The notes under the pieces: generated by a model | Seen by the model: only the letters and a program-made list of their open reading frames with translations | Told to the model about the DNA's origin: nothing | The model's database searches: none | NCBI GenBank assembly: GCA_016699245.1 | Contig: CP064968.1 | Span: 89,686 to 153,685 of the forward strand | Direction of reading: 5' to 3' | DNA: 64,000 nt | From: Candidatus Kaiserbacteria bacterium | GTDB taxonomy: Bacteria > Patescibacteriota > Minisyncoccia > Phycocordibacterales > UBA918 | Shown: in pieces, positions 17,828 to 43,531 of the stretch | How the letters are laid out: each line of letters starts with the position of its first letter | How positions within the stretch are numbered: the first letter of the stretch is position 1 | Position numbers and translations under genes: made by a program

Positions 17828-18295
17828 TTACCGAGTAACTTCAATGATTGGTGTAACGTTATCAATTTTTTCAGCATCGGGTGCAGATACAACGACTCTA
17901 TTATTTGTATCTGCTAAAACTTCATAACCAACAGCACCGGGGGCAACATCGTTGCAGTCTTTTATTGGAGCACCCTTTTTAGTTGATTTTGGATCAGTGG
18001 GTAAAGCAGAAAGGTATTTTGGTATCAAATTATCACACAGTGCATCAGTAATCTCCTCTGCACCGGCGTCGACATTACTTGGTAGAGTCCCTTTATTATC
18101 TAACGTGTACTGTCCAACTGCATTTAAGATAGCATTTATATTACTTGCCCTTTGTGTATTGTTTGCTTGTGCAAATTGGCGTGAAGGATTAATCGCCACG
18201 AGCACGGTTGCAGCCAAGACTGCAATGATACCAATAACGATAAGGACCTCAATAAGTGTGAAGCCCCCATGTCTACTTTTTGTACGTTTGTTCAT
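17828..18295 (-). CDS. type IV (major) pilin
   Basis: Class III signal peptide, ...SRHGG|FTLIEVLIVIGIIAVLAA, with Glu+5; 155 aa. Confidence 0.8.
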   Translation of the reverse strand: MNKRTKSRHGGFTLIEVLIVIGIIAVLAATVLVAINPSRQFAQANNTQRASNINAILNAVGQYTLDNKGTLPSNVDAGAEEITDALCDNLIPKYLSALPTDPKSTKKGAPIKDCNDVAPGAVGYEVLADTNNRVVVSAPDAEKIDNVTPIIEVTR

Positions 18296-18415
18296 TGTAC
18301 ATTCAATTAATTTTTATAATCAATCAAAAAGGTGTACAAAAATGGTACTCCTGCTGCACTATCTCAGCAAGATACTTTTTGCGTATAAGTGGAAACAATT
18401 TTTCGCTCTCAGAAA

Positions 18416-18856
18416 TTACAGTTCAGTCCATGAGACGAAATCACCATTAGCATTATGTATCACGACACGGTACGTGGTTTGTGCGCTACCGCGATTGGCA
18501 GTTGCATCAACAATGCTTTCATTATTCTGGGGAGTGATGCTGAGAATGGTGCAGGATTCTTCACCCACAGGTATTATTCGATTTGAAATATCAGCCAAGG
18601 GATTATTGTACGTAGCGATGCGTGCTATATGAACACACGCCTCAGCAAGATGTTCGCTTGCACTTTTATTTTCCAGTTCGAGCATGAAGAAACGACTCGC
18701 AATACCAAATTGTGCAAGCGAAAGTGTTGTTACAAAAAACATTATCGACAAAATAGTGATAGACATGAGTGCAATGAAACCCTTTTGTGATGTGTAGTTT
18801 TTCATATTAGAAATGAAGGTAATAACGAATAGGTCCAACAGGAATATCACCCACAC
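18416..18856 (-). CDS. pilin-like (minor pilin/pseudopilin) protein
   Basis: N-terminal hydrophobic helix with KG|FIALMSITIL prepilin-like motif (lacks Glu+5). Confidence 0.4.
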   Translation of the reverse strand: MWVIFLLDLFVITFISNMKNYTSQKGFIALMSITILSIMFFVTTLSLAQFGIASRFFMLELENKSASEHLAEACVHIARIATYNNPLADISNRIIPVGEESCTILSITPQNNESIVDATANRGSAQTTYRVVIHNANGDFVSWTEL

Positions 18857-19331
18857 GAAAAGATACTTCGAGGGAACGTGGCGCGTCGCCCACAGGCGCG
18901 TGATGGGTGAAGGTTATGTTGTCTATAGTGACACGAGAAGCATTCAGTGGAAGAGGGTCCTTCCCATGGTCCATGAGCGTTACTTGACTACAAATGAGTG
19001 GTGGCGTACAGAAGGCATTTCCCGTATCGAGAGTGAATATGTACGCGACATGCCTGTCTTGCTCAAGTACAAGGGTGTCGCTTGTTTCTCCTTCGCCAGG
19101 CGTGGTGATGACACCCTGAGGGGTAGTGATGGTGTTGATCAGTGCATATCGGATTTTTGCAAGAATAAAGGAAGACTCATCTTCGTTTGTAATATTGCGG
19201 GAAAGCCGCTCGGCGCCGGTGAAGAATGGGTAAATACTGACGAAAATACCTGAGCATATAATTCCAAAAAGCCCCACATAGATTATGGTTTCAATGAGTG
19301 TGAAGCCGTTTTTATTATGGAGTACACACAT
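18807..19331 (-). CDS. minor pilin with prepilin N-terminal methylation motif
   Basis: NKNG|FTLIETIIYVGL motif; start chosen at the Met giving a 9-aa leader (ORF extends to 19412). Confidence 0.55.
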   Translation of the reverse strand: MCVLHNKNGFTLIETIIYVGLFGIICSGIFVSIYPFFTGAERLSRNITNEDESSFILAKIRYALINTITTPQGVITTPGEGETSDTLVLEQDRHVAYIFTLDTGNAFCTPPLICSQVTLMDHGKDPLPLNASRVTIDNITFTHHAPVGDAPRSLEVSFRVGDIPVGPIRYYLHF

Positions 19332-20913
19332 GTGGTTGGTCGCGTATAATGTCGAGCTTTGCATCTTTTTCATTTGCAACAAGAATATAACTTTGATAGT
19401 AGGCAAGCGCAACAGATTTTGAGTGACTCAAAGTATTGTCACAGGTGCTTATAGGGGAAATGATGGTGTCATTATCATTTTTTACATCCCATACATGAAA
19501 TGTTTGACTCGGGTCGGAGGTTATCAAAAACGCAACATCACTCTGCACGATAATATCAAGCACCTTAGTATTTGTTCCCAGACCAAGTTTTTTCCATTTT
19601 GTAGGTATGGGTATGTTTGAGTCACTGACATCAATTTTATATAAATCAGAATCACTGTTCGTGGTACGAGCACGCCCAAGATACACATATGAGCCAAGCG
19701 CATACACGCTTATACCATCAGCATTACCACTTGGATCGAATTTCATACCCGAGTCATCAGGAAGAACCATTGTCGCAGGTAAACGTATGTCAACTATCTG
19801 TAATTCTCCTGTGTTGTCTGAGGTGGCGAGATATGCGTGTGTCCCGCTCACCATAATATCGTTAATGTTGTGGTTGATGTTAAGGCTTTTAATATGTATA
19901 GGAGAAGTGCGAGCAGTTACGTCGTATACATGGAACTCATTATTCTGTGTCACAGCGCAACTTGAAGGACACGCAAGGTACTGCGTTCCCACATAGAGAC
20001 TATCGTCATAATAAAAAAGGCTTCGACCAACTGCAGTGTTTGTGTGGGGAATAGTGACGGCACCCACAAATGTTGGATATTCAGGATTTGATACATCGAG
20101 TATGTGAATCTGATTTGTTGTATCATTTTGAAGTGCATACGCCGTCTGATCAACCACAATAATTTTATTATACCCATATGGGGTAAAATCGACCTCAGCG
20201 ACAACTGTAGGATATTCTAAATTGGTGATGTCAATAACCATGAGGTCAGGCTCATTTGTGGTATCAGATTTCCCACTTATAAACACGTACGAAGTACCAT
20301 TAAGTATCGCAACATCCATATCGGTAGTGGTACCAGTAAAAGAACTTGGTGTAACGCTCCACCCAGTAACTTCTGGATTATCCCAATCGCCAGGAGGAAA
20401 TGGATCACAGGCGCCGCGGCCGTAGGACGCGGCAATATTGACATTACTGAGCGCAGTCCCGAATGAAATTTGGTGTTGACGCTCACGAAGTGACGTCCAG
20501 GTTGTTTTTCCCAGCACTTCCTTTACGCAGGGAGAAATATCGGTAACCTCGGGTGAAGCGTATGTGTAGATATCCACGGAGTCCGATGTATCAGTAGTGG
20601 GGATGAGTGCGCTCCAGTTTTCGGTGATGCTTCCCATGAGCGCGCCAAATTTATTGGAACTACTTGCAAGACCCTGACTGTCGAGGAGTGCATCAAGCGC
20701 TGCAGCTTGGCCACTTTCAAGTGATATTTGGCGGGCGAGTGTGGGGTCACTAAAGACAACCATTATTGCTGCAGAGAGAAAAATTATGCCGACACTAAAT
20801 GCAATAAGTATTTCGATAGTGGAAAATCCGGAAGTGAAGGTGTGTGGGGACGAGGTACGGCCTCGTCCCCACACACCTTTCTCAAATAACTTTGCGATGT
20901 GGAAAAATATCAT
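19315..20913 (-). CDS. large pilin-like protein: prepilin N-terminus fused to LVIVD-repeat beta-propeller
   Basis: N-terminal TSG|FSTIEILIAFSVGIIF, followed by repeated x-[LIV]-x-[IV]-x-D-[IV]-[ST]-N/D-P motifs (LMVIDITNLEYP, IHILDVSNPEYP, FHVYDVTARTSP, LQIVDIRLP, LYKIDVSDSNIP, FHVWDVKND) typical of LVIVD repeats. Confidence 0.6.
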   Translation of the reverse strand: MIFFHIAKLFEKGVWGRGRTSSPHTFTSGFSTIEILIAFSVGIIFLSAAIMVVFSDPTLARQISLESGQAAALDALLDSQGLASSSNKFGALMGSITENWSALIPTTDTSDSVDIYTYASPEVTDISPCVKEVLGKTTWTSLRERQHQISFGTALSNVNIAASYGRGACDPFPPGDWDNPEVTGWSVTPSSFTGTTTDMDVAILNGTSYVFISGKSDTTNEPDLMVIDITNLEYPTVVAEVDFTPYGYNKIIVVDQTAYALQNDTTNQIHILDVSNPEYPTFVGAVTIPHTNTAVGRSLFYYDDSLYVGTQYLACPSSCAVTQNNEFHVYDVTARTSPIHIKSLNINHNINDIMVSGTHAYLATSDNTGELQIVDIRLPATMVLPDDSGMKFDPSGNADGISVYALGSYVYLGRARTTNSDSDLYKIDVSDSNIPIPTKWKKLGLGTNTKVLDIIVQSDVAFLITSDPSQTFHVWDVKNDNDTIISPISTCDNTLSHSKSVALAYYQSYILVANEKDAKLDIIRDQPHVCTP

Positions 20914-20919
20914 AGTGTC

Positions 20920-21381
20920 TTACCAATCAATTTGACCCACATCGTTAATGGTGATTTGTTGCTCCTTACCATTGCCTGAAATGGTAAGTATTCCTGCGCC
21001 TTCAGATACACTTCCGGAAAGCCGTTCAAAGATAATATTTTCATGAGCAGCGCTGTGTGTGATGGTGATGTGTTCGCTCGTGAAAGGAGTAATACGATTA
21101 CTCGCTGTCCCTTCGATAAAGATCTCTCCTTCAAAAAGTACATACCGATGATTTGTGGTATCGACATGAACGCCGTAAGATACATTACCTGCATTTGCGA
21201 GAGCCTTCGCCCGCGCGCCAGAGAGAAGAAGAGATACAAAAAGATCGCGTTCCTGGAGAACACTCGCGCGTGCAATAGAGTCCATGTTCATGACTATGCC
21301 AAAGGAAAGGATGATACCGGTGAGCCCTACAACCATGAGGAGTTCGATGTATGTAAATCCTCTTTGCAGAATTTCTCTCAT
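20920..21381 (-). CDS. pseudopilin (GspH/FimT-like minor pilin)
   Basis: QRG|FTYIELLMVVGLTGIILSF prepilin motif; start at Met-23 of ORF 20920..21447. Confidence 0.6.
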   Translation of the reverse strand: MREILQRGFTYIELLMVVGLTGIILSFGIVMNMDSIARASVLQERDLFVSLLLSGARAKALANAGNVSYGVHVDTTNHRYVLFEGEIFIEGTASNRITPFTSEHITITHSAAHENIIFERLSGSVSEGAGILTISGNGKEQQITINDVGQIDW

Positions 21382-21391
21382 ACTATTCGTG

Positions 21392-22552
21392 TTAATTACT
21401 GAGGTGCTTTGTGACTTCGTAGATAGGAGTAATGACTGACACCGCAATGAGCCCTACCAAAATACCCATAGTCATAAGAAGTATAGGCTCAATTGAATTA
21501 GAAAGACTTTTTGTACTTTCATCTACTTCAGTCTCATAGAGACTCGACAGATAACTAAGCGTAACAGAAAGACTCCCTGTCGTTTCGCCAATAAGAAGCA
21601 TGTGGGGAAGCATATCAGGGAAGATGGAGAGATAGTGCATCATCCTGGTAGAAATTTTTTCACCTTTTTCAATATGCTCTGCAATATCGAGATATGCATT
21701 TTTGTATATGGTGTTTTTGGTAACACGGGCAGTGATGCGCATTGCTTCCACGACACCCACACCAGCAGAAATGTTGAGCCCTACTGTACGGCAGAAATTG
21801 GCGCAGTTGTACGCGCGAGCTATGTTGCCGATGATGGGAAGTCGTAAAAGAATCCAGTCAGAGATAGTGCGAAGCCGGGGGAACACGTTCCGTGAAATAA
21901 TGAAGACGAGTACGGCACCAATCAAGCCAAAAAAAGTTACTAGCCCCCATGTTTCTAGATATACGCTTATCGCAAGGAGGATACGTGTGGTAAGAGGGAG
22001 GGCGATATTGAGAGATATAAAGATAGGCATAATCTTCGGGAAAATGAACATCACCAACAGACTCGTTACGCCGAGTGTTGCAATGGTGATGAAAACTGGG
22101 TAAACGAGTGCGCTCTGCACCTTACGCTTTAATGCTTGTTTTTTAGCGAGTTCATCAGCGAGGTATATAAGGTTTTCTGAGAGAATGCCATTGTTTTCGC
22201 CAATGCGAATTATGTTAATGGTGAATTCACCAAATAGATGTTCATACCTTGCAAGACTTGTGGAAAGAAATTGTCCCGCAGAAACGTCCTGAATGATTGT
22301 ATAAAAAATAATTCGCTTTCGTTTTGATTTGGTTTGCGCATGAATCATGGTCATACTTTCGAGTATGGAGACACCTGCTTTCACCAAGAATGAAAGTCGC
22401 TTTGCAAAGAGGACTTGTTCTTGAATTGAAAAATGAAGAAAAAGAGTTGAAGCAGTAGGGAAGGAGGTTGTGTGTGAAGTGATTGTATTATTCACTTGGT
22501 CACGAGATGGTCCACGAAATCGTGCAACAAGATTTTGCAGTTTTGAGTGCAT
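21392..22552 (-). CDS. pilC: type IV pilus assembly platform protein PilC (GspF family)
   Basis: 386 aa with two GspF repeats and 3 TM segments. Confidence 0.8.
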   Translation of the reverse strand: MHSKLQNLVARFRGPSRDQVNNTITSHTTSFPTASTLFLHFSIQEQVLFAKRLSFLVKAGVSILESMTMIHAQTKSKRKRIIFYTIIQDVSAGQFLSTSLARYEHLFGEFTINIIRIGENNGILSENLIYLADELAKKQALKRKVQSALVYPVFITIATLGVTSLLVMFIFPKIMPIFISLNIALPLTTRILLAISVYLETWGLVTFFGLIGAVLVFIISRNVFPRLRTISDWILLRLPIIGNIARAYNCANFCRTVGLNISAGVGVVEAMRITARVTKNTIYKNAYLDIAEHIEKGEKISTRMMHYLSIFPDMLPHMLLIGETTGSLSVTLSYLSSLYETEVDESTKSLSNSIEPILLMTMGILVGLIAVSVITPIYEVTKHLSN

Positions 22553-22648
22553 AGTGTGATGTAAATGATGTGCCTGTCATGGGGTCAGTGTCAAGAGACA
22601 GAGGTGTCTTAAAAAAAGTAACAAGGCGACGTCTTGATACTTTGATAC

Positions 22649-22692
22649 GAAAATCCCCACGGCGTGCGGAGCACGCCGTGGGGATTTTCTTG
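22649..22692. terminator. hairpin terminator downstream of the SGNH hydrolase gene
   Basis: aaatccccacggcgtgc-ggag-cacgccgtggggatttt (17-bp stem) with flanking T-run on the minus strand. Confidence 0.45.
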
Positions 22693-22702
22693 ATTTCCAA
22701 TA

Positions 22703-24487
22703 TTATCTGTTCAAGAGGGCTCGCAGGTATGGCTCTACGCGGTCGGCGATGAGGTCGTGGCCGTTGTCGCGGGGGTGGACGAGGTCGGTTGTTCGGAATG
22801 GATTTCCGAGGATAGCTTCCATCACATTGGGGGTGTACGCTGCACCATTGTCCCAAGCGAGATTTCGGTACTGTGAGTCATAGTTAATCAAGAAGTAGTT
22901 TTTGTATCCGAGAATAAGCACTGCGGAGCCATCATCCGTGATACGCTCCACAATCGTGTCGAGATTTGAAAAGATTGTTGCGGTATTCACTTTTTGCAAG
23001 AAGTCGTTTCCTCCGAGGAATACAATAACGAGTGAAGGATTCTTTGAAAGCACATCAGCATCGAGACGGGCGAGTGCTTCAGTGGTGGTATCTCCATTTA
23101 CTCCCGCATTAATGATAGGCACGCTCAGTCTTTCACTGAGGAGAGAAACATAGTCATTGCCAATCGTCGCATCGCGTCCAAAGGTGATACTGTCACCGAG
23201 TGCAATGACTGGTCCATTTCGAAGTGGATAGTTTTCAATTCGTTCGAGGTTTACATACACCACACTAATCTCCGCACTTTTTACAATTACTGGATATCCC
23301 GTAGTAGAGATTCTGTACCCAAAGTAGTATGTGCCTGCCTTTGGTATTCTTATTGTTTTAGTTCCTGAGGGTGAGGAGCCTACCGTCACAGAGGAAACCT
23401 GTCTATCGGTCTCAGCATCATAGAGAATAATGTCGTCACCAGATTGGTGAGCATACGCCGGTGCAGCGTAGGTTATCGTAATCGGCTGGTCAATTTCTGC
23501 TGTAGTTATATTTGTCGAGAGGGTATAGAGAGATGCATCGGGAAGTTGTACGATGACTGGTCCTGCTGTTTTTACCACGGGCCTCCCTGTGATATTTATG
23601 CGGTATCCTATAGTGTAGTTACCGGGTGTGCGGAGGATGAATGTCTTCGTCCCAGTGTTCGTTTTGCCTATTGATTGAGAAGAAACCACACGGTTTGTAA
23701 CGGTATCAAACACGATGATACTGTCAGAAGACTGATAGGTAGTTGCTGGACTCCTGTAGGTTACGATAAGTGGCTCACCCATGCGTAGGGTTGTTGCATT
23801 GGTGGTAAGTGTATATTGTGATGCATCGGGGAGGCTCACGGTCACTGGCCCCACGGTTTTGATGATGGGTCTGCCGGTAATTCCCAGACGGTATCCTACG
23901 GTGTATATGCCGGGATTACGTACTACAAGGGTCTTTGTGCCAGAAGAGATTTTTCCGAGTGACCCAGAAGTCACCACTCTGTTTGTTGCCGTATCAATAA
24001 GCACAATACTGTCCGAAGATTGGTGCGCGCCCGTAGGTGCTGCGTAGGTTATTACGAGGGATTCACCACTCTGGAGCGATGTCTTATTGACCGAGAGTGT
24101 GTAGAGGGATGCACTCGGGACGTTGACCGTAACGCTTTCTGAAGTAGCAAGTATGGGGTATTTTGAAATACTTGCACGATACTTAAAAACATAGGTACCC
24201 GGCTTAAAGGTGGAAAATGTTTTGGTTCCACTTTGCGCATCACCGACACGCTGTGTTGCCACGATGTAGTTAGTATCCGCGTTCACCATGAGAATACTGT
24301 CGCTCGATCTATATGAGGTTGGAGCAACACTGTATGAGACAGTAATAGACTGACCAATAGACACCGAGGTAGGGGAGGCGGTAAGGGTTACATCTGCTGC
24401 ATGTGCGGACAGGCTAAACCCAAATAAAATGACTAAAAATATAGCGATACTAAAAGCGCATTTTGGGAGCGCATAAAGAAAATTCAT
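22703..24487 (-). CDS. secreted SGNH/GDSL hydrolase with four N-terminal ~100-aa tandem Ig-like repeats
   Basis: Signal peptide; four tandem repeats (each ...Y/A-x-PT/ATxYxSSDSIxLxDTxTNRVVxSxSxGKxxxGTKT...); C-terminal VIALGDSITFG (GDS block I), GVNGDTT (block II), FLGGNDF (block III) and DLVHPRDNGH (block V DxxH). Confidence 0.7.
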   Translation of the reverse strand: MNFLYALPKCAFSIAIFLVILFGFSLSAHAADVTLTASPTSVSIGQSITVSYSVAPTSYRSSDSILMVNADTNYIVATQRVGDAQSGTKTFSTFKPGTYVFKYRASISKYPILATSESVTVNVPSASLYTLSVNKTSLQSGESLVITYAAPTGAHQSSDSIVLIDTATNRVVTSGSLGKISSGTKTLVVRNPGIYTVGYRLGITGRPIIKTVGPVTVSLPDASQYTLTTNATTLRMGEPLIVTYRSPATTYQSSDSIIVFDTVTNRVVSSQSIGKTNTGTKTFILRTPGNYTIGYRINITGRPVVKTAGPVIVQLPDASLYTLSTNITTAEIDQPITITYAAPAYAHQSGDDIILYDAETDRQVSSVTVGSSPSGTKTIRIPKAGTYYFGYRISTTGYPVIVKSAEISVVYVNLERIENYPLRNGPVIALGDSITFGRDATIGNDYVSLLSERLSVPIINAGVNGDTTTEALARLDADVLSKNPSLVIVFLGGNDFLQKVNTATIFSNLDTIVERITDDGSAVLILGYKNYFLINYDSQYRNLAWDNGAAYTPNVMEAILGNPFRTTDLVHPRDNGHDLIADRVEPYLRALLNR

Positions 24488-24544
24488 ATGAGTATATTGT
24501 ACATCTTTTTTGACAAAATGTCAATAATATGAAGTTTTCATAAG

Positions 24545-25900
24545 TTACTCACTTATGGTACGAAGAATTTCCGCGAGGGTGGTTTTGCCTGCGACTGCTT
24601 TACGTAATCCATCTTCAAACATGGTAGTCATGCCTTCCTCAATCGCAATATTTTTAAGCACGACAGAAGATTTGCGTTCAAGAATTGCTTCGCGCACACG
24701 AGGGGAAGTAACAAGTACTTCGTATATTCCGATACGCCCCGAAAATCCAGTACGATCACACGCTTCACAGCCTTTACCTTTATAAAAAGTATTCGGAATG
24801 TTTTTAAGATTTTGTTTGAGGCGGTCGGGGAGTATGCGAAGGAGATTATGGCGCTCTGCCTCAGTGAGTGCGTGTGCTTCGGTACAATGTGGACATATTT
24901 TGCGAACAAGACGCTGACCGATGGCGATATTGATTGTTGATGCCACAAGGTATGCGTCGATTCCCATATCAAGAAGACGGGGAAGTGTGGTGGCTGCGTC
25001 ATTCGTATGAAGTGTGGAGAGAAGAAGGTGACCGGTGAGTGCAGTGTTGATTGCAATGCCTGCCGTCTCTGTATCACGTATTTCACCCACCATAATGATG
25101 TTGGGGTCCTGGCGCAAAATTGAGCGAAGTCCTTGTGCAAACGTGAGATTGGTACGAGTATTAATTTGAATTTGTGTGATACCCGGAATTGCGTACTCGA
25201 TGGGGTCTTCAATAGTGATAATCGATACCTCTTTTTTATTGAGCATTTTAATAAGCGTATAGAGGGATGTAGTTTTTCCGGAGCCTGTGGGGCCTGTGGC
25301 GAGAATCATTCCGTGGGGTTGCGCTATGGCGCGTTCAATTTTTTCTTGATCTTGAGGACTAAAGCCAAGCATCTCAAGTGTAAAATTGGATGAGTGATCG
25401 GCAAGGAGACGCAAGACGGCATTTTCCCCATAGTAGGTGGGAGTGATAGAAACACGAATATCGATAGGCTTGGTGTCGTTGGTGCCGGTTTGCATACGAA
25501 AGCGCCCGTCTTGCGCTGCCTGGTGCTCATCAGTGCGGAGCCCAGAAAGCACTTTGATGCGTGAAATGACTTCAGAGAGAATATTTTTTGGGAACGTACA
25601 CTTATCTTGTAATACACCATCAATGCGTAAACGCACGACCGCATCTTGTTCGGTGGGGTCAATGTGTATATCGGATGCACGAAGTGCGTATGCTTCTTCA
25701 ATACACGTTTGTACAAACTCAATAATAGGAATTGGTCCTGGGCGTGAAAGTATTTCCCGCACACTACCAGTTGTCGTTGGTGTTTGGCCCTGGTCTTTTA
25801 TGTCGATACTTTTCTCACCTTGAGACTGGTTCATGGTTTTGTGATTATGTGCTTCAGTGTGGGCCTTGTCTAGAGAGTCGGCTGGACAAGTGTTGGACAC
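24545..25900 (-). CDS. pilB: type IV pilus assembly ATPase PilB (GspE family)
   Basis: GPTGSGKTT Walker A, GEIRD Walker B/Asp box, His box, and tetracysteine motif CPHC...CEAC. Confidence 0.85.
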   Translation of the reverse strand: MSNTCPADSLDKAHTEAHNHKTMNQSQGEKSIDIKDQGQTPTTTGSVREILSRPGPIPIIEFVQTCIEEAYALRASDIHIDPTEQDAVVRLRIDGVLQDKCTFPKNILSEVISRIKVLSGLRTDEHQAAQDGRFRMQTGTNDTKPIDIRVSITPTYYGENAVLRLLADHSSNFTLEMLGFSPQDQEKIERAIAQPHGMILATGPTGSGKTTSLYTLIKMLNKKEVSIITIEDPIEYAIPGITQIQINTRTNLTFAQGLRSILRQDPNIIMVGEIRDTETAGIAINTALTGHLLLSTLHTNDAATTLPRLLDMGIDAYLVASTINIAIGQRLVRKICPHCTEAHALTEAERHNLLRILPDRLKQNLKNIPNTFYKGKGCEACDRTGFSGRIGIYEVLVTSPRVREAILERKSSVVLKNIAIEEGMTTMFEDGLRKAVAGKTTLAEILRTISE

Positions 25901-25967
25901 ATATAATATCCGTGGCAGAATATGGTGCAGTTTTTTGAGTATATTTCATATTCCTGAGGAGGAAAAG

Positions 25968-26345
25968 ATGGGAGATTCTGAGAGAAGTACTGTGTCATCC
26001 AGTCAAGAAGTTCTGGTAGCGCTGGCGCAGAAGGCTTGTGCGCTTGTTGATGCAGACATTAAGAAGCCTGAAGACGTCAAGATATGCTTTGGTGCAAGTT
26101 TTGAATTCGGGGTTATTACTTGCATCTGGAGCAAATTGTATCGCGATGGTAGTCAAACTGATGTGTTCTCGTATTTCTACCACCCGGAGTGCTGCTCAGG
26201 CCTCAAAAACGAAGGGGGTATACCTAGGTTGTGTGTGCAGACAGTGATGAGTTCATCTCCTCCGTATGTCACTACACCAAACGAATGGTACGAGATTCAA
26301 GGAATCTCTACCGAAAACCCAGTAGCAAAACGCATCGAAGTATGA
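25968..26345 (+). CDS. hypothetical protein
   Basis: GAGGAGG RBS 7 nt upstream of ATG at 25968; 125 aa, Cys-containing; no family recognised. Confidence 0.3.
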   Translation: MGDSERSTVSSSQEVLVALAQKACALVDADIKKPEDVKICFGASFEFGVITCIWSKLYRDGSQTDVFSYFYHPECCSGLKNEGGIPRLCVQTVMSSSPPYVTTPNEWYEIQGISTENPVAKRIEV

Positions 26346-26561: not shown

Positions 26562-28136
26562 GTGGCTGAAAGAAGAAATGGCACTCGCTTAAAGACTGCT
26601 ACCGGTCGTAAATCAATAAGACAAGAACCACCTCGTGAACTTCCCATCGTGCGCGCAATTCGCAAATTTGCCAATCGTGCGTGCGACGTATCAAGTATTG
26701 GTGAAGGCATGAGAAAGATTTTTGTGCTCGATACCAATGTGCTCATGCATGACCCCACGTGTATCTTCCGCTTTGAAGAACACGACGTCTTCATTCCGTT
26801 GATGACGCTTGATGAACTCGATAACCACAAGAAGGGAAAAGAGGAAATAAACCGAAATGTGCGTCAAGTTTTACGCGCAATCAAGGAACTTGCGGATGTA
26901 AAGGGATGCAAAATTACTGAAGGCATCGATCTTACTGGTCCATCAGAAGGACTTGCGACGGGCCGTCTCTTTTTGCAGAGCAAAAATATGGAAGGCGCAC
27001 TTCCTACATCCCTTCCAATGACCAAGGTTGATCATCAAATTCTCTCGGTGATCACCCACATGCAAGACAGTGAAGTGTATAAGGGTTGCATGATTATCTT
27101 GGTCACCAAAGATATCAATATGTATATCAAGGCGAAAGCGCTTGGCTACATGGTTGAAGACTATCTGAATGACAAGGTAATTGAAGATTCAGATTTGCTC
27201 TACTCGGGCGCTCTGGAACTTCCTGATGATTTTTGGTCAAATCATTCAGACGGTATGGTGGCCAAGAAAGATAGGCAGAGTGGGATATCAACATATCGTG
27301 TTACCGGTCCACTCTGTTCTACTTTTTACGTCAATCAGTTGCTTTGGTCGGAGTCACTCGATCTCGAATGTATCGTTCGTGAAGTGTCAGGGGATCATGC
27401 AGTGCTCCAGACGCTCGTGAATTACCGGAATCAAAAACACTCTGTCTTCGGTATTCACCCGAGAAATCGTGAGCAGAACTTCGCGTGTAATTTGCTCCTT
27501 GATCCGGACATTGATTTTGTATCTTTGCTTGGGCAGGCAGGTACCGGTAAAACCCTTCTCGCTATCGCCGCCGGTCTTCACCAGACGATTGATGGAAATA
27601 GGTTTGGTGACATCATCATGACCCGAGTCACCGTTTCAGTTGGCGAGGACATCGGCTTTCTTCCGGGTACCGAGGAAGAAAAGATGGGGGCATGGATGGG
27701 TGCACTCGAAGATAATCTTGAAGTGCTCGTATCAGTGGATGGGAATCATTCCAAGGATGACGGTGCATACGGTATCAATCATATTCCTTCGGACATAGCA
27801 CGAAAGGAGACACATCAACTGATAAGGAATCGTATCAAAGTGAAGTCACTCAACTTCATGCGTGGCCGTACATTTTTCAGGAGATACCTTATCATCGACG
27901 AGGCTCAAAATCTTACACCGAAGCAGATGAAAACTCTCATCACGCGAGCCGGTCCCGGCACCAAGGTGATTTGTCTTGGCAACATAGGGCAGATTGATTC
28001 ACCCTACCTTACGGAAGGGTCGTCGGGTCTTACCTATGTCGTTGATCGGTTCAAAGGTCAAAAACATGTGGGACACATCATCTTGCAGCGTGGTGAGCGT
28101 TCACGCCTTGCCGATTTGGCCAATGAATCACTCTGA
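26562..28136 (+). CDS. PhoH2-type protein (N-terminal PIN domain + PhoH ATPase, YlaK-like)
   Basis: GTG start 7 nt after AGGAGG; FVLDTNVLMHDP PIN motif; GQAGTGKT Walker A; IIDEAQN Walker B. Confidence 0.75.
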   Translation: MAERRNGTRLKTATGRKSIRQEPPRELPIVRAIRKFANRACDVSSIGEGMRKIFVLDTNVLMHDPTCIFRFEEHDVFIPLMTLDELDNHKKGKEEINRNVRQVLRAIKELADVKGCKITEGIDLTGPSEGLATGRLFLQSKNMEGALPTSLPMTKVDHQILSVITHMQDSEVYKGCMIILVTKDINMYIKAKALGYMVEDYLNDKVIEDSDLLYSGALELPDDFWSNHSDGMVAKKDRQSGISTYRVTGPLCSTFYVNQLLWSESLDLECIVREVSGDHAVLQTLVNYRNQKHSVFGIHPRNREQNFACNLLLDPDIDFVSLLGQAGTGKTLLAIAAGLHQTIDGNRFGDIIMTRVTVSVGEDIGFLPGTEEEKMGAWMGALEDNLEVLVSVDGNHSKDDGAYGINHIPSDIARKETHQLIRNRIKVKSLNFMRGRTFFRRYLIIDEAQNLTPKQMKTLITRAGPGTKVICLGNIGQIDSPYLTEGSSGLTYVVDRFKGQKHVGHIILQRGERSRLADLANESL

Positions 28137-29432: not shown

Positions 29433-30866
29433 ATGAGGGATATAAAATACAGAGATCACGCGGTTGCACCTATGTTATGGTCACGATACGCTACCTATTT
29501 TTTTGTGATGCTCGCTATTCTTCTTATCCCAGTCTTATTAGCATTCAAAGTAGAAGCAGACGTTGCTATTTTTCATTCAGACACGTATCTCGAGCAGGGC
29601 GTTGAGATGACGCATGAGTCAGGAACTGAAAAATATATACAGTATGAACACTTTTGGAGTGATTTTGAAGGAGTTGTTCCCGAAGATGCTCTTGTAAACA
29701 ATATTACACTCCATCTTACGTGGTCACCGGTGACGCGCGTGGTCTCTGATGGGGCAGTGGAAGATTCTCCAAAAGAGGTGACTCCAGAAAGTACTCATGA
29801 AGAGGTGATGAATGAACTACCTACGCCTGAAGAGCAATTAGGGGAATCATTGCATGAGGAACTCCCTGTAGAGCCAGACGTTGCTATTCCTGAAGAAACA
29901 GAACCTTCTTCAGAGGCGGTTATTCCTGTAGACAGTATTGATGAGCCTGAAGAAGTAATTATAGAAGAATCCACCTCTGATTCGCCTCCCGAAGCGAGTG
30001 ATAATTCATCGGAGACTGTGGGATTTGAGGAGGTTTCATGGAATCATTTGTATTCATTAGTTAATGCGCAGATTGAAGAGGAAGTTGCAACAAATACAAT
30101 AGTAATAACTGAAGGAAGTGAACCTGAAGTGATAATTACTGAGTCTATTTCGACCACTTCAGGATTTGTCTCGGAAGATATTTTGATTGAAAATCAGGCT
30201 GAGAAGTTCTTTGAAGTGCGGTATACGATTGATGGGGTGACATGGCAAGAGCTTGGGAATGTTGGATTTGATGATGCACAGGATACAGTATTTGATCTTT
30301 CACCTATAGGTATTGATGCAATACCAAACCTACGCGTTGCTATTCGATACACCGTTCGTGATGGAGAAACGACGAAGATTATTTTTGATTCAATGCGACT
30401 CGAAGTCGGATATGGAGCACCGGTCATAGAGGAAGTCGCTCCGCCCACCCTACAAAATGATAGCGAACCAAATTTTGACGTTGGTGCAATTAAGGCTGAT
30501 GTCCAATCGGAAAATATTCGAGCGGTTGTACTCGAAAGAGGAGGAGTCTTTGAGTTTTGGTACTCCGTCACTGACCCGCAATCAGGTGCAGTTTTTTGGA
30601 ATAAAATTCTTGGAGGAGGGGCTGTTGATGAGAATGCACCGATCGGTATTAAAAAACGGACGATATTTTGGCTTGATCGCAATCAACAAACACTCTTTGG
30701 GTTTGCTGTTGATGAAGAATCAATATTTGCAACTCCATTTCAAGATGACCAGGAAAGTAAAGTCTTTCTCCTTCCATTTACAGATGAAAATGGCAAGCCG
30801 TGGGAAGCACTATTTAATTCCTCAGAGAACGTACTTGAGTTCAGTAAAGTAAAAAGTGAATCATGA
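29433..30866 (+). CDS. membrane-anchored surface protein with E/P/S-rich acidic linker
   Basis: N-terminal TM (FFVMLAILLIPVLLAF), ~120-aa acidic low-complexity region, then a ~250-aa globular region; stop overlaps the start of the giant gene (ATGA). Confidence 0.5.
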   Translation: MRDIKYRDHAVAPMLWSRYATYFFVMLAILLIPVLLAFKVEADVAIFHSDTYLEQGVEMTHESGTEKYIQYEHFWSDFEGVVPEDALVNNITLHLTWSPVTRVVSDGAVEDSPKEVTPESTHEEVMNELPTPEEQLGESLHEELPVEPDVAIPEETEPSSEAVIPVDSIDEPEEVIIEESTSDSPPEASDNSSETVGFEEVSWNHLYSLVNAQIEEEVATNTIVITEGSEPEVIITESISTTSGFVSEDILIENQAEKFFEVRYTIDGVTWQELGNVGFDDAQDTVFDLSPIGIDAIPNLRVAIRYTVRDGETTKIIFDSMRLEVGYGAPVIEEVAPPTLQNDSEPNFDVGAIKADVQSENIRAVVLERGGVFEFWYSVTDPQSGAVFWNKILGGGAVDENAPIGIKKRTIFWLDRNQQTLFGFAVDEESIFATPFQDDQESKVFLLPFTDENGKPWEALFNSSENVLEFSKVKSES

Positions 30867-33800
30867 TGCGAGAGCGGCTCTTTCCATACATACGAGCGTT
30901 GTCGAAAAGACACATACTCATGGTGGGTGTTAGTTTTTTTATTATGGGCGTGTGTATTCTTGGCACACGACACCTTCTCGTTGGTGAAAAAGTTGGGCAG
31001 TTTATAAGGACGAATCGGGCGCTTGCACACTACCAATTCACCCCCACGCATGGCACCATCGTCACCGGCGCATCCACCACCATCACCTCAGCTACCGGAA
31101 ATACTACTGAAGGAGTCAATGTGGGTTCATGGAAGGGAACACTCTCCGACGATAACTATCACTGGGTCGTCGCTGGGGCAGGAGCAAGCGGACTTGATGT
31201 CAACCTCACCATGGGTGGGGTACAGTTAAACGGCGCCAACAAACTCATTGTCCAAACAGAATTTGACCTCGATGCGACCATTCTTGCAACTGAGGTACAG
31301 ATTTGTGACTGGACGTCATCAACTGATGTGGACGATGCCGCAGACAGTGAATGTACGGGTGGCGGGTGGCGTACCCTCAACACAAAAAATGAACTGCAAG
31401 GCCCGCAACGCCTCGTACACAGCACCGGTATCCCATTTCAGTGGCACCTTTATAACGGGTATTGGTCTACCGGCACGACCGGGGGAGCAGCGGTTGATAC
31501 GCCACTCACGAACTTCCTCAACGGTGCCGATCAGATGAAATTCCGATACTTCTCTGCCTCATCGAGCGTGTCCGAAATCGCCATTGACTACCTTCGTGTG
31601 TACGCGGTCGTCGACCCGGTCTATCACGCGGGAGGATTTGTACAGGAATCAGGCGGCACGCCGAGTGGCCACTATGGCAACACCTTTAGCGTCGGCCATT
31701 CCGTGACCGCACAATTCGCGGTGACTACCGGTGATAATATCTACCTCGGTGTCCCCGGTACGGTTGCGACTACATCAAACTTCTACCTCACCTTCAAGAA
31801 CGTGAAGACATACACCGGCATGAATACCATTCTCGTGAACGCCGAGACACTCTGTTCTCTCGCAACGGCTGGTCTCCAGTACCGATTCAAGATTCGCAAT
31901 TTTAATACCAGTATCTGGGAAGATATTTCACAACCACTCGACTGTTCTACCAACGGGTTTTTCAACAACTTTGCCTTAAACAACATCGTCATTGATGACT
32001 ACATCAATGCGTCAAACGAAATATGGGTGGGTGTCTCTGCGCTCTCAAACTCGACGACACAAATTCGCATCGACTCCATCTACCTCATGCTCGGCACTAC
32101 CAACACCGACACGAACAGTTGTGAAATATCATTTGGATCAAACACTGCAGGACGCATTGCCTCAAACCCCTCTGCGCCAGGAGCGGATCGTATCCAAGCA
32201 CTCACCTCAGATGGTACGTATATGTACGCTTCGGGATACGACAGTGCGGGAATCGATAATGAGTGGCGCATAGAGAAGCGCAATCTTTCCGACGGAGACC
32301 TCGTCTCGGCATTTGGTGTTGGTGGCGCAACCTCAACCGATCCCTCAGTTGGTGCCGACCAAATTTTCGCCATCGCCACAACCTCGGGTGCGATATTTGT
32401 TGCGGGGTATGACACAGCAGCGGGCACGGGGCAGTGGCGTATCGAGAAGCGCGATAGTACCGATGGTACGCTCGAAACCGCGTTTGATACGGATGGCATT
32501 ATCACCACAAATCCTTCAGCAAGCCTCGATCACATCAATGCGATTGCCACTGATGCGAGTTACCTCTACGTGGCAGGAGTTGAAAATACTACGAGTGGTA
32601 CGTGGCGCATTCATAAGTATGACATCACCACCGGTGCACTCGTTACCGCATTTGATGGAGATGGTATCGCGACGAGCACGCTTGCTGCCTCGGGCGACGA
32701 ACGACCGCAGGCGCTCAAGGTGGATGGCGACTATCTGTACATCGGGGGATACGACAACCTCTCCGGGAACATCGAGTGGCGTCTCGAGAAGCGCAACAAG
32801 ACCACCGGTGCACTTTGTGCGGGTGGAGGGGAGTGTGCCGCAGGTGCATTTGATACCGATGGTGTGGTGCAGACAAACCCCTCTTCGGGTATTGATGCAA
32901 TACGTGCACTCGCCATTACCGACGCACACGTGTTCCTTGCAGGATACGACTCATCAACCACAAACAACCAGTGGCGCATCGAAAAGCGCGATATCGCGAC
33001 CGGCGCACTCGATACTGCATTCGATACCGATGGTATTATGCAATATAACCCAAGTACCGGTGCTGACTGGATAACCGCACTCGCACTCGATGACACCACA
33101 CTCTACGCGATTGGAAATGTGAGCAACGGTGCGTGGCGTGTTGATGCTCGCGATATCACGACCGGTGCCTCGACGACGTTCTCCGGTAACGGTACGACAC
33201 TCTCTGAAGATGGTGGTGATGACCAGCCACTTGCCGTCGTACAGGAGGGTGGGTATCTCTATGTTGCAGGATACGGCACTGCTCCAGGAGACAACCAATG
33301 GCTCATCGAAAAACTTGCGACGAACACAGGGCTGCGGAGCACCGACAGCTTTGGTGCAAATGATTGCACCGGAACACGAAACATTGATATCACCGGCGGG
33401 AACAGAGATGCATGGACAATCCAGACACAAGATGAATCAACGAATCACAGTACTCCATACTATGCACTCGATACCGACGGTGATGCAGCAATTGAGGAAG
33501 CGGGATCAGCAACCATCGGGTTTTCGGTTGCGGTACCGGGAAACAGTGCTGTCACCGGTATCTACTGGGCAGGACGCGCAATGAACGGTGCAGGAGCGGG
33601 TACGGTGCGCCTTGCCGTGAAGGACTACTCAGGATTCACCGGCCTTACAGGAGGCAGAAGTCTCGTCGGTTCCTCACCAGGAATTGCTATGACATACACT
33701 GATCCCTTGATAGTTGGTGGTATTACCTCAGGAGGTATGGCAGGGTACCTCACAAACCCTGAGGATTATATTGATACCTTAAATAATGAGATGTCACTCA

Positions 33801-43400: not shown

Positions 43401-43527
43401 CAATGATTTCTGGCGCTGATTCCTTAGGAATCGCAAAGAGGGAATAGAGTCCAATACCAACGAGCGCTGCAATGAGAAGCAGACTAAATTCGCGTTTTCG
43501 AAGAAAGAAAAACCAAAGTGCATGCAT
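40417..43527 (-). CDS. RND superfamily efflux transporter (AcrB/HAE-like)
   Basis: 1036 aa, 12-TM topology with two large periplasmic loops and AcrB-like N-terminus. Confidence 0.8.
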   Translation of the reverse strand: MHALWFFFLRKREFSLLLIAALVGIGLYSLFAIPKESAPEIIVPIGIVSTIYPGASALDIEELITNKLEREISNVDNLDSLTSTSRDGASIIVVNFDASADIDKSIQDLKDAVDRGKQDLPTDATDPQVNKVDFANQPILQLSVSSDLPALEFTALAETVADEFKNVRGVSEVTIEGVRAHQVQVSVRESALNAYGLTLSDVSRSLGLANLTLPIGTVVTDDIEYAVRYEGKLKEVSEIENIPVSMGSGVPVYVRDVATVKNGVERETSISRVSVAGAPAESAFTLSIFKRAGVDVTEMSAAALERMESMQKEGGLLASSQVLVVYDQGETVRTDLSELVTTGFETVALVIICLLLTIGWRESLVAALSIPLSFVIAFIGLYASGNTINFISLFSLILAVGILVDSGIVITEAIHTRMQKYGNADEAAKAAIKEYAWPLIGGTMTTIAVFAPLFFLSGIVGEFIKSIPFTIIFVLLASIIVALGMVPLIAVYLTKHSHANRFEAKQEEYTRRAQAWYRSHLITFLKNARAQRYFFISLGVGFLLVFILPISGLLKVIFFPPENVDFVFVELETRQGTTLAETDLSLRTAEELLYDKGYIESFTSTAGAGSSFTGEGKSGQKFANITLTLKPERTESSEEIATDLRDTLDVIPNIDVKVAEQQNGPPTGAPVTLKFIGSDLNELALAVENAGRLLESINGTRDVTLSTNNSATELILEVDRSKASAAGVSPGMIGEVLRSAVFGVTATTITEDGDDTDVIVKIETDANETDFAASPKVTLDTLRNLTVISVTGKPVLVGSVVRDRLAPANSNIAHEDEERIETVSAYTKDGVTAAEIVATFKAKEAELTLPSSVRISYGGETEDINKSFTEMGLAFVAGLVLMLAILVLSFNSIRYSIYLLLAVPLSLIGVFVGLTITGQALSFTSLLGVIALAGVIINHAIILLDSMIHYHNAMKPGDSLIEVVADASVSRLRPIFLTTITTVVGMIPLSTISDFWSPLAFAIMFGLSFAMILTLVLVPALFYRNEKKIEEKRRVV

Positions 43528-43531
43528 ATTA

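What the first reader, a model, noticed from the sequence alone, without database searches (positions are those of the whole stretch)
22649..24487. Secreted SGNH/GDSL hydrolase with four tandem Ig-like repeats embedded between pilB and pilC
pilB and pilC are normally adjacent. Here a 594-aa exported esterase, with GDS, GxND and DxxH blocks and a fourfold ~100-aa repeat, is inserted between them. A strong hairpin terminator (22651-22688) insulates it. The placement suggests a pilus-associated deacetylase or lipase, for example one that modifies host or self envelope polymers at the contact site.
Basis: partly seen in the sequence, partly recalled or inferred. Interest (0 to 1): 0.55.

Follow-up and report, generated by a model that had tools for sequence, protein, structure and literature searches.

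The report
Secreted esterase gene splitting a pilus cluster
A gene for an exported TesA-like esterase on a stalk of four beta-sandwich modules really does sit between the pilus genes pilB and pilC in this Kaiserbacteria (CPR) genome, but it has its own promoter and terminator and lies elsewhere in most relatives, so the placement looks like a local gene-order change, not evidence of a pilus enzyme.

Summary
ORF 22703-24487 (-) encodes a 594-aa protein, NCBI hypothetical IPH92_00470 from a Candidatus Kaiserbacteria MAG. It has a Sec-type signal peptide, four 96-aa tandem repeats and a C-terminal SGNH domain. All four SGNH blocks are invariant across 24 homologs. It lies between a PilB/GspE-type ATPase gene and a PilC/GspF gene. 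A perfect 19-bp hairpin follows it (dG -38 kcal/mol).

The catalytic domain is closest in sequence and fold to the TesA/PpEST lysophospholipase-L1-like esterases (TM 0.86-0.87). Carbohydrate and sialate esterases match far more weakly in sequence. The repeats are diverged SKICH/HECW_N-like beta-sandwiches, and orthologs carry 3-5 copies.

The gene is an autonomous unit. A promoter, TTGAC-N5-GTCAA-N6-TGTAYAAT, sits 7-8 nt before the ATG in the window and in all 8 close-ortholog loci (6 distinct genomic contexts), whatever lies upstream. This implies a leaderless mRNA.

Synteny argues against a dedicated pilus role. Only one relative shares pilB-SGNH-pilC. A sister lineage has SGNH-pilB-pilC. 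Ten other ortholog contexts have no intact pilus gene. None of 80 other patescibacterial pilB loci carries the gene, and only pilT ever separates pilB from pilC there.

Verdict: an ordinary secreted esterase of an uncharacterised CPR family. A link to the pilus is possible but weakly supported.

The parts
22703..24487 (-). CDS of the 594-aa exported SKICH-like-repeat + SGNH esterase (stop codon 22703-22705)
   Evidence: dN/dS about 0.14 against orthologs
24398..24487 (-). Signal peptide, aa 1-30, predicted cleavage after AHA
   Evidence: Sequence inspection. The AxAADVTLT junction is conserved in the ortholog consensus. Pfam N_methyl (prepilin motif) was not among the matches at E <= 0.01.
23255..24400 (-). 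Four tandem 96-aa beta-sandwich repeats (24119-24400, 23831-24118, 23543-23830, 23255-23542), diverged SKICH/HECW_N-like
   Evidence: repeat HMM 140-156 bits each; AF2 pLDDT 94.1; Foldseek hits to MG, FN3 and adhesin-extender domains; profile hits to SKICH-bearing proteins
22706..23245 (-). SGNH catalytic domain (aa 415-594): Ser433, Gly462, Asn494, Asp568, His571
   Evidence: Pfam; invariant columns; AF2 pLDDT 96.7; Foldseek TM 0.86-0.87 to TesA-type esterases; phmmer against PDB
24496..24524 (-). Gene-specific promoter TTGACA-17-TACAAT (11 of 12). The -10 box ends 8 nt before the ATG, which implies a leaderless or nearly leaderless mRNA. It contains the palindrome TTGAC-N5-GTCAA (24510-24524).
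   Evidence: The motif occurs once in the window and once in each of 8 close-ortholog loci, always directly before the SGNH gene. It is the best of 43 ORFs in the window.
22649..22689 (-). Intrinsic-terminator-like hairpin, 19-bp perfect stem with a 3-nt loop, 14 nt after the stop codon
   Evidence: Hairpins of unrelated sequence occupy the same place in L008, L007, L011 and L001. There is none in L012, where pilB follows.
24545..25900 (-). pilB (GspE/PilB-type assembly ATPase). The true start is probably ATG 25834 (429 aa, as in L008), with its own promoter TAGACA-17-CATAAT at 25844-25872.
21392..22552 (-). pilC (GspF/PilC platform protein) with its own promoter TTGACA-18-CATCAT at 22565-22594
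   Evidence: The promoter is conserved in L008, and a similar one precedes pilC in L012.
17828..21447 (-). Prepilin-like genes directly downstream of pilC: 175-aa, 532-aa LVIVD beta-propeller pilin, 201-aa, 146-aa and the 155-aa pilin
   Evidence: GFTxIE-type N-termini by inspection. Pfam N_methyl is detected in the 201-aa and 155-aa proteins only, and LVIVD in the 532-aa protein. The same gene order is found in L012.

Best explanation
This is a free-standing gene for a secreted esterase and not a component of the pilus machine.

Shown:
- It is flanked by its own sigma-70-type promoter. The -10 box ends 7-8 nt before the ATG in every close ortholog.
- It is followed by its own strong hairpin.
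- The product has a Sec-type signal, four SKICH-like beta-sandwich modules (3-5 in orthologs) and a C-terminal compact SGNH domain.
- The full Ser-Gly-Asn-Asp/His catalytic set is under strong purifying selection.
- The domain is closest in sequence and fold to the TesA/PpEST (lysophospholipase L1-like) esterases.

Inferred:
- The mRNA is leaderless.
- The signal peptide is cleaved after AHA30.
- The four beta-sandwich modules form an extended stalk that holds the esterase away from the cell surface.
- The enzyme hydrolyses carboxyl-ester bonds of acyl esters outside the cell. Lysophospholipids or other lipid esters of neighbouring or host cells are the most likely substrates, given the TesA-like fold and the inability of CPR bacteria to make lipids.

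Its position between pilB and pilC results from a lineage-specific local rearrangement. The sister lineage has PhoH-ATPase-SGNH-pilB-pilC, and the window has PhoH-pilB-SGNH-pilC. This was tolerated because pilB, the esterase gene and pilC each have their own start-proximal promoter.
For: Gene, domains and motifs.

TesA-type assignment: by phmmer against PDB, 9otv scores 6e-15 and P. aeruginosa TesA 1.7e-14, against acetyl-xylan esterase about 5e-4 and sialate O-acetylesterase 1e-3. By Foldseek, TM is 0.87 (9otv), 0.86 (4jgg) and about 0.8 (E. coli TesA). The AF2 model has pLDDT 96.7. 9otv and PpEST are characterised pNP-ester and polyester hydrolases related to TesA (PMC12720421).

Repeats.

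Autonomy: the promoter motif is present once per locus, directly upstream of the gene, in the window and in 8 loci with 6 different upstream contexts. Hairpins sit after the stop codon in 5 of the 6 loci folded (window, L008, L007, L011, L001; not L012). pilB, SGNH and pilC have the three best start-proximal promoters of 43 ORFs.

Synteny: L008 is like the window. L012/L009 have SGNH-pilB-pilC-pseudopilins. L011, L007, L001, L005, L006, L010 and L171-L176 have no pilus gene. None of 80 patescibacterial pilB loci carries the gene, and only pilT is ever found between pilB and pilC.

Purifying selection: dN/dS is about 0.14 overall and about 0.075 in the SGNH domain.
Against: Within the closest clade (>=70% identity) the gene is next to an intact pilB in 3 of 6 contexts and next to a pilB fragment in a fourth. 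Some functional linkage therefore cannot be excluded.

Substrate specificity of SGNH enzymes cannot be read from 25-30% identity to TesA. Several distant orthologs sit next to cell-wall enzymes (VanY, Peptidase_M15_4, GH26+PG_binding, polysaccharide deacetylase), which hints at a glycan or cell-wall substrate instead.

The leaderless transcript, termination at the hairpin, signal cleavage and enzyme activity are all unmeasured. dS is near saturation (1.0-1.4), so the dN/dS values are approximate.
Confidence: 0.7

Rival explanations
1. Pilus-associated enzyme. The esterase is deployed together with the type IV pilus at the contact site with a host cell, where it modifies or harvests host envelope lipids or polymers. 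The linkage to pilB/pilC would reflect co-regulation or co-function.
For: The gene is adjacent to an intact pilB in the window, L008 and L012/L009, and to a truncated T2SSE in L002. In L012 there is no terminator between the SGNH gene and pilB. Type IV pili mediate the episymbiotic host interaction in cultivated Saccharibacteria (PMC9894109, PMC11623550). CPR bacteria must obtain lipids from other cells, and no lipid uptake or breakdown mechanism has been identified (PMC7242380, PMC11665869).
Against: The position relative to pilB is not conserved even among close relatives: upstream in one lineage, downstream in another, convergent with a fragment in a third. Ten of 14 ortholog contexts have no T2SSE, T2SSF or pilin gene among the neighbours recovered. 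None of 80 other patescibacterial pilB loci has the gene. In the window it has its own promoter and terminator. It has no prepilin signal and no recognisable pilin-binding module.
Confidence: 0.15
2. Cell-wall or glycan O-acetylesterase. The enzyme removes O-acetyl groups from peptidoglycan or another envelope or extracellular polysaccharide, its own or a neighbour's, as part of wall remodelling or glycan foraging. The beta-sandwich repeats would act as a wall-spanning spacer.
For: Neighbours of more distant orthologs include VanY two genes upstream, plus MliC and an M23 peptidase with PG_binding (L001); Peptidase_M15_4 directly downstream and GH18 (L005); and GH26+PG_binding directly downstream, plus a polysaccharide deacetylase with PG_binding (L011). 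Carbohydrate esterases of the SGNH fold (6hfz, 7ddy) are also significant fold matches, TM 0.77-0.79.
Against: Sequence matches to the TesA/PpEST group are about 10 orders of magnitude better than to acetyl-xylan or sialate esterases. The best TM-scores are to TesA-type enzymes. No PG-binding or carbohydrate-binding module was detected. Cell-wall genes are frequent in these small genomes, so the neighbour evidence is weak.
Confidence: 0.25
3. A mobile cassette or recent horizontal insertion that happened to land in the pilus cluster, with no relation to the host's biology.
For: The gene travels with its own promoter and terminator and is found in at least 6 different contexts among relatives with 70-76% identity.
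Against: There are no flanking direct or inverted repeats and no integrase or transposase nearby. GC content is like the surroundings, 0.44-0.47. The PhoH side and the pilC-pseudopilin side are both conserved with L012, so the change is a local swap and not an import. The family is restricted to close patescibacterial lineages.
Confidence: 0.05

Closest known systems
TesA / PpEST subfamily of SGNH hydrolases (E. coli thioesterase I/protease I/lysophospholipase L1, PDB 1ivn; P. aeruginosa TesA, 4jgg; Chloracidobacterium Ct_EST, 9otv)
   Same: A compact SGNH domain of about 180 aa with GDS, G, GGND and DxxH blocks. These are the best sequence matches (E 6e-15 to 4e-10) and the best fold matches (TM 0.80-0.87). 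The protein is exported, as the periplasmic TesA is.
   Different: Identity is only 25-30%. The NCBIfam TesA equivalog scores 52 bits against a cutoff of 270. TesA enzymes are single-domain, whereas this protein carries four N-terminal beta-sandwich modules. The organism is a CPR bacterium presumed to lack an outer membrane, so the enzyme would be extracellular and not periplasmic.
Multidomain secreted SGNH esterases with beta-sandwich accessory domains (for example the two-domain acetyl-mannan esterase, PDB 6hfz)
   Same: An SGNH catalytic domain combined with beta-sandwich modules in an exported protein, and a significant fold match (TM 0.77).
   Different: In those enzymes the accessory domain is a carbohydrate-binding module next to the active site. 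Here the modules are four tandem SKICH-like repeats of variable number (3-5), which looks more like a spacer or stalk. The sequence is closer to TesA than to carbohydrate esterases.
Bacterial secreted proteins with tandem SKICH/HECW_N-like domains
   Same: The repeat profile finds 115 representative proteins. Of 64 examined, 45 carry Pfam SKICH and 41 HECW_N over the same stretches. Partner domains include SGNH (10), subtilase (6), trypsin-like peptidase and beta-helix.
   Different: The window's own repeats do not reach Pfam SKICH at E <= 0.01. They replace the DWIGLY-type motif with SSDSI. The homology is indirect, established through intermediate sequences.
pilB-pilT-pilC arrangement of type IV pilus clusters
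   Same: A gene lies between pilB and pilC.
   Different: In the 4 patescibacterial loci with a gap, the intervening gene is the retraction ATPase pilT (TIGR01420, 432-457 bits), which is a pilus component. Here it is an unrelated exported esterase with its own promoter and terminator.
Modular type IV pilins (for example S. sanguinis PilB; PMC8179133)
   Same: The idea of presenting a functional module in connection with a pilus. This same cluster does contain such a pilin, the 532-aa LVIVD beta-propeller pilin.
   Different: The esterase has no class III (prepilin) signal or N-methylation motif. It has an ordinary Sec signal, so it cannot be polymerised into a pilus.

Membership tests
SGNH/GDSL hydrolase superfamily | Block I GDS(x) with the nucleophilic Ser near the N-terminus of the domain | tested here: met
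   ALGDSITFG, Ser433. G, D and S are invariant in 24 homologs.
SGNH/GDSL hydrolase superfamily | Block II Gly and block III GxND Asn (oxyanion hole) | tested here: met
   NAGVNG (G462) and GGND (N494), invariant
SGNH/GDSL hydrolase superfamily | Block V DxxH (catalytic Asp and His) | tested here: met
   D568-L-V-H571, invariant
SGNH/GDSL hydrolase superfamily | Profile match above the curated threshold, and the three-layer alpha/beta/alpha fold | tested here: met
   Pfam Lipase_GDSL_2 71.3 bits (cutoff 32.9) and Lipase_GDSL 49.3 bits (cutoff 23.6). AF2 pLDDT 96.7, with 99 PDB matches at E <= 1e-3; all 50 listed are SGNH/GDSL-type esterases or scaffolds designed on that fold.
TesA (acyl-CoA thioesterase I / protease I / lysophospholipase L1) equivalog, NCBIfam NF007819 | Score at or above the curated equivalog cutoff (270 bits) | tested here: not met
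   52 bits, E 7e-14. It is related but not an ortholog.
TesA (acyl-CoA thioesterase I / protease I / lysophospholipase L1) equivalog, NCBIfam NF007819 | Single-domain architecture of about 180-210 aa | tested here: not met
   594 aa, with four N-terminal repeats
TesA (acyl-CoA thioesterase I / protease I / lysophospholipase L1) equivalog, NCBIfam NF007819 | Thioesterase, lysophospholipase or arylesterase activity | not testable with these tools
   Needs an enzyme assay.
Peptidoglycan O-acetylesterase (Ape1 type) | Sequence or fold match to solved Ape-type enzymes, and the beta-sandwich domain inserted in the SGNH fold (the family definition is from my own knowledge) | tested here: not met
   No peptidoglycan O-acetylesterase entry appears among the 36 PDB sequence matches at E <= 0.01 or the top 50 fold matches. 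The catalytic domain is an uninterrupted 180 aa. Caveat: this is absence from hit lists, not a direct pairwise comparison.
Type IV pilin / modular pilin | Class III signal peptide with the G|F-T-L-I-E N-methylation motif (Pfam N_methyl) | tested here: not met
   No PF07963 hit, whereas two of the prepilin-like genes of the same cluster do hit it. The N-terminus is Sec-type with AHA|A.
Type IV pilus gene cluster (conserved accessory component) | Conserved co-occurrence and position with pilB/pilC across relatives | tested here: not met
   None of 80 patescibacterial pilB loci has the gene. It is adjacent to an intact pilB in 3 of 14 ortholog contexts, and its position differs between them.
Type IV pilus gene cluster (conserved accessory component) | Co-transcription with the pilus genes | not testable with these tools
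   Sequence signals point the other way: the gene has its own promoter and its own hairpin. No transcript data are available.
SKICH / HECW_N-like beta-sandwich domain | Pfam SKICH (PF17751) match above threshold in this protein | tested here: not met
   No SKICH hit at E <= 0.01.
SKICH / HECW_N-like beta-sandwich domain | Remote homology through intermediate sequences, and a beta-sandwich fold | tested here: met
   The repeat profile hits proteins whose matched stretches are Pfam SKICH/HECW_N (45 and 41 of 64). Examples are P0035 441-534 against SKICH 466-504, and P0018 325-404 against SKICH 335-413. The AF2 model has four beta-sandwiches.

The most novel reading that the evidence does not exclude
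In this Kaiserbacteria clade, a TesA-like (lyso)phospholipase held on a long SKICH-like stalk is released or displayed next to the type IV pilus machinery. It strips acyl chains or lysolipids from the envelope of the host cell that the pilus has captured. That would be a first concrete candidate for the lipid-scavenging step that CPR bacteria need, for which no mechanism has been identified (PMC11665869, PMC7242380).
Probability: 0.1. Interest if true: 0.6.

Novelty: new member of a known kind. Interest (0 to 1): 0.25.

Why it matters
As it stands, this is a correct annotation upgrade. A 'hypothetical protein' becomes a secreted TesA-like SGNH esterase with SKICH-like repeats. The case also shows that gene order inside a pilus cluster can be misleading when each gene has its own promoter.

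It would matter more if the enzyme proved to act on host lipids. Patescibacteria cannot synthesise membrane lipids, and how they obtain them is an open question. An abundant, conserved, exported lysophospholipase-like enzyme is a testable candidate whether or not it is linked to the pilus.

The conserved promoter placed 7-8 nt from the ATG is also a clean example for studying leaderless expression in CPR bacteria.

Tried and rejected
Searches that led nowhere:
- The Rfam gathering scan and the ARAGORN scan of the whole window gave 0 hits, so there is no RNA element here.
- The PDB sequence search with the repeat region gave only chance-level hits, E >= 0.006, to ATP synthase delta.
The rerun on genome contigs was dominated by generic SGNH domains and gave only 2 full-length orthologs.
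- The literature search for Patescibacteria + type IV pili + lipase found 0 papers. CPR + SGNH found 2, neither of which names the topic in its title or abstract (not read).
- One NCBIfam call failed because of my coordinate offset and was redone with plain sequences.

Ideas considered and rejected:
- Modular pilin: the protein has a Sec signal and no N_methyl motif.
- Ape1-type peptidoglycan O-acetylesterase: absent from the sequence and fold hit lists.
- Mobile element: no flanking repeats or recombinase, and the GC content is ordinary.
- Second copy or paralog in the window: none found.
- The + strand ORFs inside the gene (22902-23153, 23781-24047) and the 118-aa ORF 22500-22856 (-) that spans the terminator: I treat these as shadow ORFs. 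They lie within or overlap a CDS under purifying selection.
- A regulon defined by the palindrome TTGAC-N5-GTCAA: there is only one copy in the window, and 13 of 100 shuffles also give at least one. Its conservation across orthologs may simply reflect the overlap with the -35 box.
Full report
**What is there**

The ORF at 22703-24487 on the minus strand is real and encodes 594 aa. It is identical to NCBI hypothetical protein IPH92_00470 of a Candidatus Kaiserbacteria (CPR/Patescibacteria) MAG on a 1.05-Mb contig.

Pfam places a GDSL/SGNH domain at aa 429-578: Lipase_GDSL_2, E 1.9e-19, 71 bits against a cutoff of 32.9. All four defining blocks can be read from the sequence:
- block I: GDS at 431-433;
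- block II: NAGVNG, with G462;
- block III: GGND at 492-495;
- block V: D568-x-x-H571.

These residues are invariant across 24 homologs down to about 28% identity.

The N-terminal 30 residues look like a standard Sec signal ending AHA|A. This is by inspection, because no predictor was available. Pfam found no prepilin N-methylation motif in this protein, although it found one in two of the neighbouring prepilin-like genes.

Between the signal and the catalytic domain lie four tandem repeats with a period of 96 aa. They are 36-58% identical to repeat 2, and each scores 140-156 bits against the repeat HMM.

**Flanks**

The upstream gene (24545-25900, minus) is a GspE/PilB-type assembly ATPase. 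Pfam T2SSE gives E 2.7e-122. NCBIfam gives GspE 495 bits and PilB 470 bits, but PilT only 178 bits.

The downstream gene (21392-22552, minus) is PilC/GspF. After it come five prepilin-like genes, including a 532-aa LVIVD beta-propeller pilin.

Its dG is -38 kcal/mol and z = -8.15, and 0 of 200 shuffles fold as well.

**What kind of SGNH enzyme**

A sequence search of the catalytic domain against PDB finds the TesA/PpEST group first:
- 9otv (Chloracidobacterium lysophospholipase-L1-like esterase): 6e-15;
- P. aeruginosa TesA 4jgg: 1.7e-14;
- E. coli TesA: about 4e-10.

Acetyl-xylan esterases (about 5e-4) and sialate O-acetylesterase (1e-3) are much weaker. No peptidoglycan O-acetylesterase appears in the list.

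An AlphaFold2 model of the domain is very confident, with pLDDT 96.7. Its best solved-structure matches are the same enzymes: TM 0.87 to 9otv, 0.86 to 4jgg and about 0.8 to E. coli TesA. 9otv and its relatives are TesA-related esterases characterised on pNP esters and polyesters (PMC12720421).

The protein is not a TesA ortholog. The NCBIfam equivalog scores 52 bits against a cutoff of 270. Substrate specificity cannot be fixed at 25-30% identity.

**What the repeats are**

AlphaFold2 gives four beta-sandwich domains with pLDDT 94.1. Foldseek matches them to macroglobulin domains of complement proteins and alpha-2-macroglobulin, to FN3 arrays and to adhesin extender domains. These are generic Ig-like sandwiches.

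A profile of the four repeats was searched against 1.84 billion representative proteins. It found only 115 proteins at E <= 1e-3. Of 64 examined, 45 carry Pfam SKICH and 41 HECW_N over the matched stretches. Their partner domains include SGNH (10), subtilase (6), trypsin-like peptidase and beta-helix.

The repeats are therefore diverged SKICH-like modules of the sort attached to various secreted hydrolases. Orthologs have 3, 4 or 5 copies, which fits a spacer or stalk better than a specific binding site. No other ORF in the window contains the repeat or a second SGNH domain.

The gene is under purifying selection. dN/dS is about 0.14 overall and about 0.075 in the catalytic domain, with dS near saturation.

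**The gene is its own transcription unit**

Directly upstream of the ATG lies TTGACA-17-TACAAT, an 11 of 12 match, with the -10 box ending 8 nt before the start codon.

The extended motif TTGAC-N5-GTCAA-N6-TGTAYAAT occurs exactly once in the window. It also occurs exactly once in each of the eight close-ortholog loci. In every case it sits immediately before the SGNH gene, with 7-8 nt between the -10 box and the ATG. This holds whether the upstream neighbour is pilB, a small divergent gene or something else.

That spacing leaves no room for a Shine-Dalgarno sequence and implies a leaderless or nearly leaderless mRNA. This is an inference.

Strong hairpins of unrelated sequence follow the stop codon in L008, L007, L011 and L001. 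There is none in L012, where pilB follows directly.

In the window, pilB (probable true start ATG 25834, giving 429 aa as in L008) and pilC each have their own start-proximal promoter. pilB, SGNH and pilC have the three best such promoters among 43 ORFs. Nine of the 43 reach 9 of 12 matches, against 0 of 578 internal control codons.

The cluster is therefore transcriptionally modular: pilB, then the esterase, then pilC with the minor pilins. This explains why an insertion between pilB and pilC is tolerated.

Fourteen independent ortholog contexts were recovered.
- Same order as the window, pilB-SGNH-pilC: only L008, at 75% identity.
- Sister lineage L012/L009, at 70% identity: PhoH(-), P-type ATPase, small gene, SGNH, pilB, pilC, then the same pseudopilin series. 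Here pilB and pilC are adjacent and the esterase gene is upstream of pilB.
- L002, at 71% identity: PhoH nearby, the SGNH gene, and a convergent truncated T2SSE comprising only the N-terminal half.
- L011, at 71% identity: the ATPase side is kept, but GH26+PG_binding, a GT2 and a polysaccharide deacetylase follow the gene.
- L007, at 76% identity: a convergent Ig/cadherin surface protein follows.
- Eight more distant contexts, at 30-60% identity: no pilus gene. Their neighbours include VanY, Peptidase_M15_4, ClpP and a DEAD helicase.

From the other direction, 80 patescibacterial pilB loci (45-68% identity) were examined.
- In 69 a pilC was found downstream. In 65 of these it starts within about 330 nt.
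- The other 4 have a bona fide pilT between pilB and pilC (TIGR01420, 432-457 bits).
- None has an SGNH homolog within +-7 kb.

There are no flanking repeats or recombinase genes around the window's gene, and its GC content is ordinary.

The simplest history is a local swap of two neighbouring, independently transcribed genes in the window/L008 lineage. The starting point would be an ancestral PhoH ... SGNH-pilB-pilC neighbourhood.

**Mechanism and rivals**

My best reading (confidence about 0.7) has three parts:
- it is a secreted, active esterase of the TesA-like clade;
- the enzyme is held on a stalk of SKICH-like modules;
- it is expressed from its own leaderless unit, and its position inside the pilus cluster is incidental.

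The most likely substrates are acyl esters such as lysophospholipids. This rests on the TesA-like fold. It also rests on the fact that CPR bacteria cannot make lipids and appear enriched in lysolipids taken from other cells (PMC7242380), and that no uptake or breakdown mechanism is known (PMC11665869). This step is inference.

Rivals:
- A cell-wall or glycan O-acetylesterase (about 0.25). It is suggested by cell-wall enzymes next to some distant orthologs and weakened by the much stronger TesA similarity.
- A true pilus-associated function (about 0.15). It is kept alive by adjacency to pilB in 3-4 of 6 close contexts and by the known role of type IV pili in Saccharibacteria episymbiosis (PMC9894109, PMC11623550).
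- A mobile cassette (about 0.05).

**Novelty and score**

The protein belongs to an uncharacterised, narrowly distributed patescibacterial family. It is built from well-known parts and is a new member of a known kind. The pilB-X-pilC arrangement is unusual but shallow in evolutionary terms, being shared by only two sampled genomes. Interest is 0.25. If the enzyme turned out to be the lipid-scavenging tool of these episymbionts, whether or not it is linked to the pilus, it would deserve about 0.6.

Noticed in passing
window 19315-20913 (-): A 532-aa protein with a prepilin-like N-terminus (GFSTIEILIAF) and LVIVD beta-propeller repeats (Pfam LVIVD E 5e-11). It is a modular pilin and probably a tip adhesin. 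It is conserved at 35% identity in L012. The modular-pilin survey in PMC8179133 records a CPR (Falkowbacteria) pilin with 12 copies of motif IPR013211, which from my own knowledge is the LVIVD repeat.
   Followed up: partly
window, whole (43 ORFs); e.g. 4735, 6933, 10904, 48930, 53207: Sigma-70-like promoters whose -10 box ends 4-13 nt before the start codon are frequent. Nine of 43 ORFs reach at least 9 of 12 matches, against 0 of 578 internal control codons. Shine-Dalgarno motifs were seen at only 2 of the 43 chosen starts. This suggests that leaderless mRNAs are common in this genome.
   Followed up: partly
window 24545-25900 (-): The longest pilB ORF starts at GTG 25900. The promoter TAGACA-17-CATAAT (25872-25844) and the 429-aa ortholog in L008 point to ATG 25834 as the real start. 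The 162-aa + strand ORF 25857-26345, which overlaps the longer version, was not examined.
   Followed up: partly
window 30860-34270 (+) and 29433-30866 (+); GC-rich block 31000-37000: A 1136-aa ORF and a 477-aa acidic ORF have no Pfam match. The 1136-aa ORF and the sequence after it lie in a block of GC 0.50-0.54, against about 0.44 elsewhere; the 477-aa ORF sits just upstream at ordinary GC. A second GC-rich block lies at 51000-53000. The 64 kb contain no rRNA, tRNA or Rfam hit.
   Followed up: no
window 40417-45025 (-): An AcrB-type RND transporter (E 2e-178) sits next to a protein with weak, sub-threshold HlyD-type membrane-fusion matches, in a CPR genome presumed to lack an outer membrane. 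The RND gene is 91% identical over a 709-aa alignment to an incomplete ORF at the end of L012.
   Followed up: no
L002 8620-9459 (-) (also L004): A 279-aa T2SSE fragment comprising only the N-terminal half of the profile, 57% identical to the window's PilB. It lies convergent to the SGNH ortholog and is probably a decayed or rearranged pilB.
   Followed up: partly
window 24510-24524: A perfect palindrome, TTGAC-N5-GTCAA, overlaps the -35 box of the esterase promoter. It is conserved in all 8 close-ortholog loci and could be an operator. There is only one copy in the window, and 13 of 100 shuffles also give at least one.
   Followed up: partly
window 26562-28136 (+): A PIN-PhoH fusion gene is the conserved neighbour on the far side of the locus in the window, L002, L009 and L012 (60-76% identity). 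It anchors the comparison of gene orders.
   Followed up: yes
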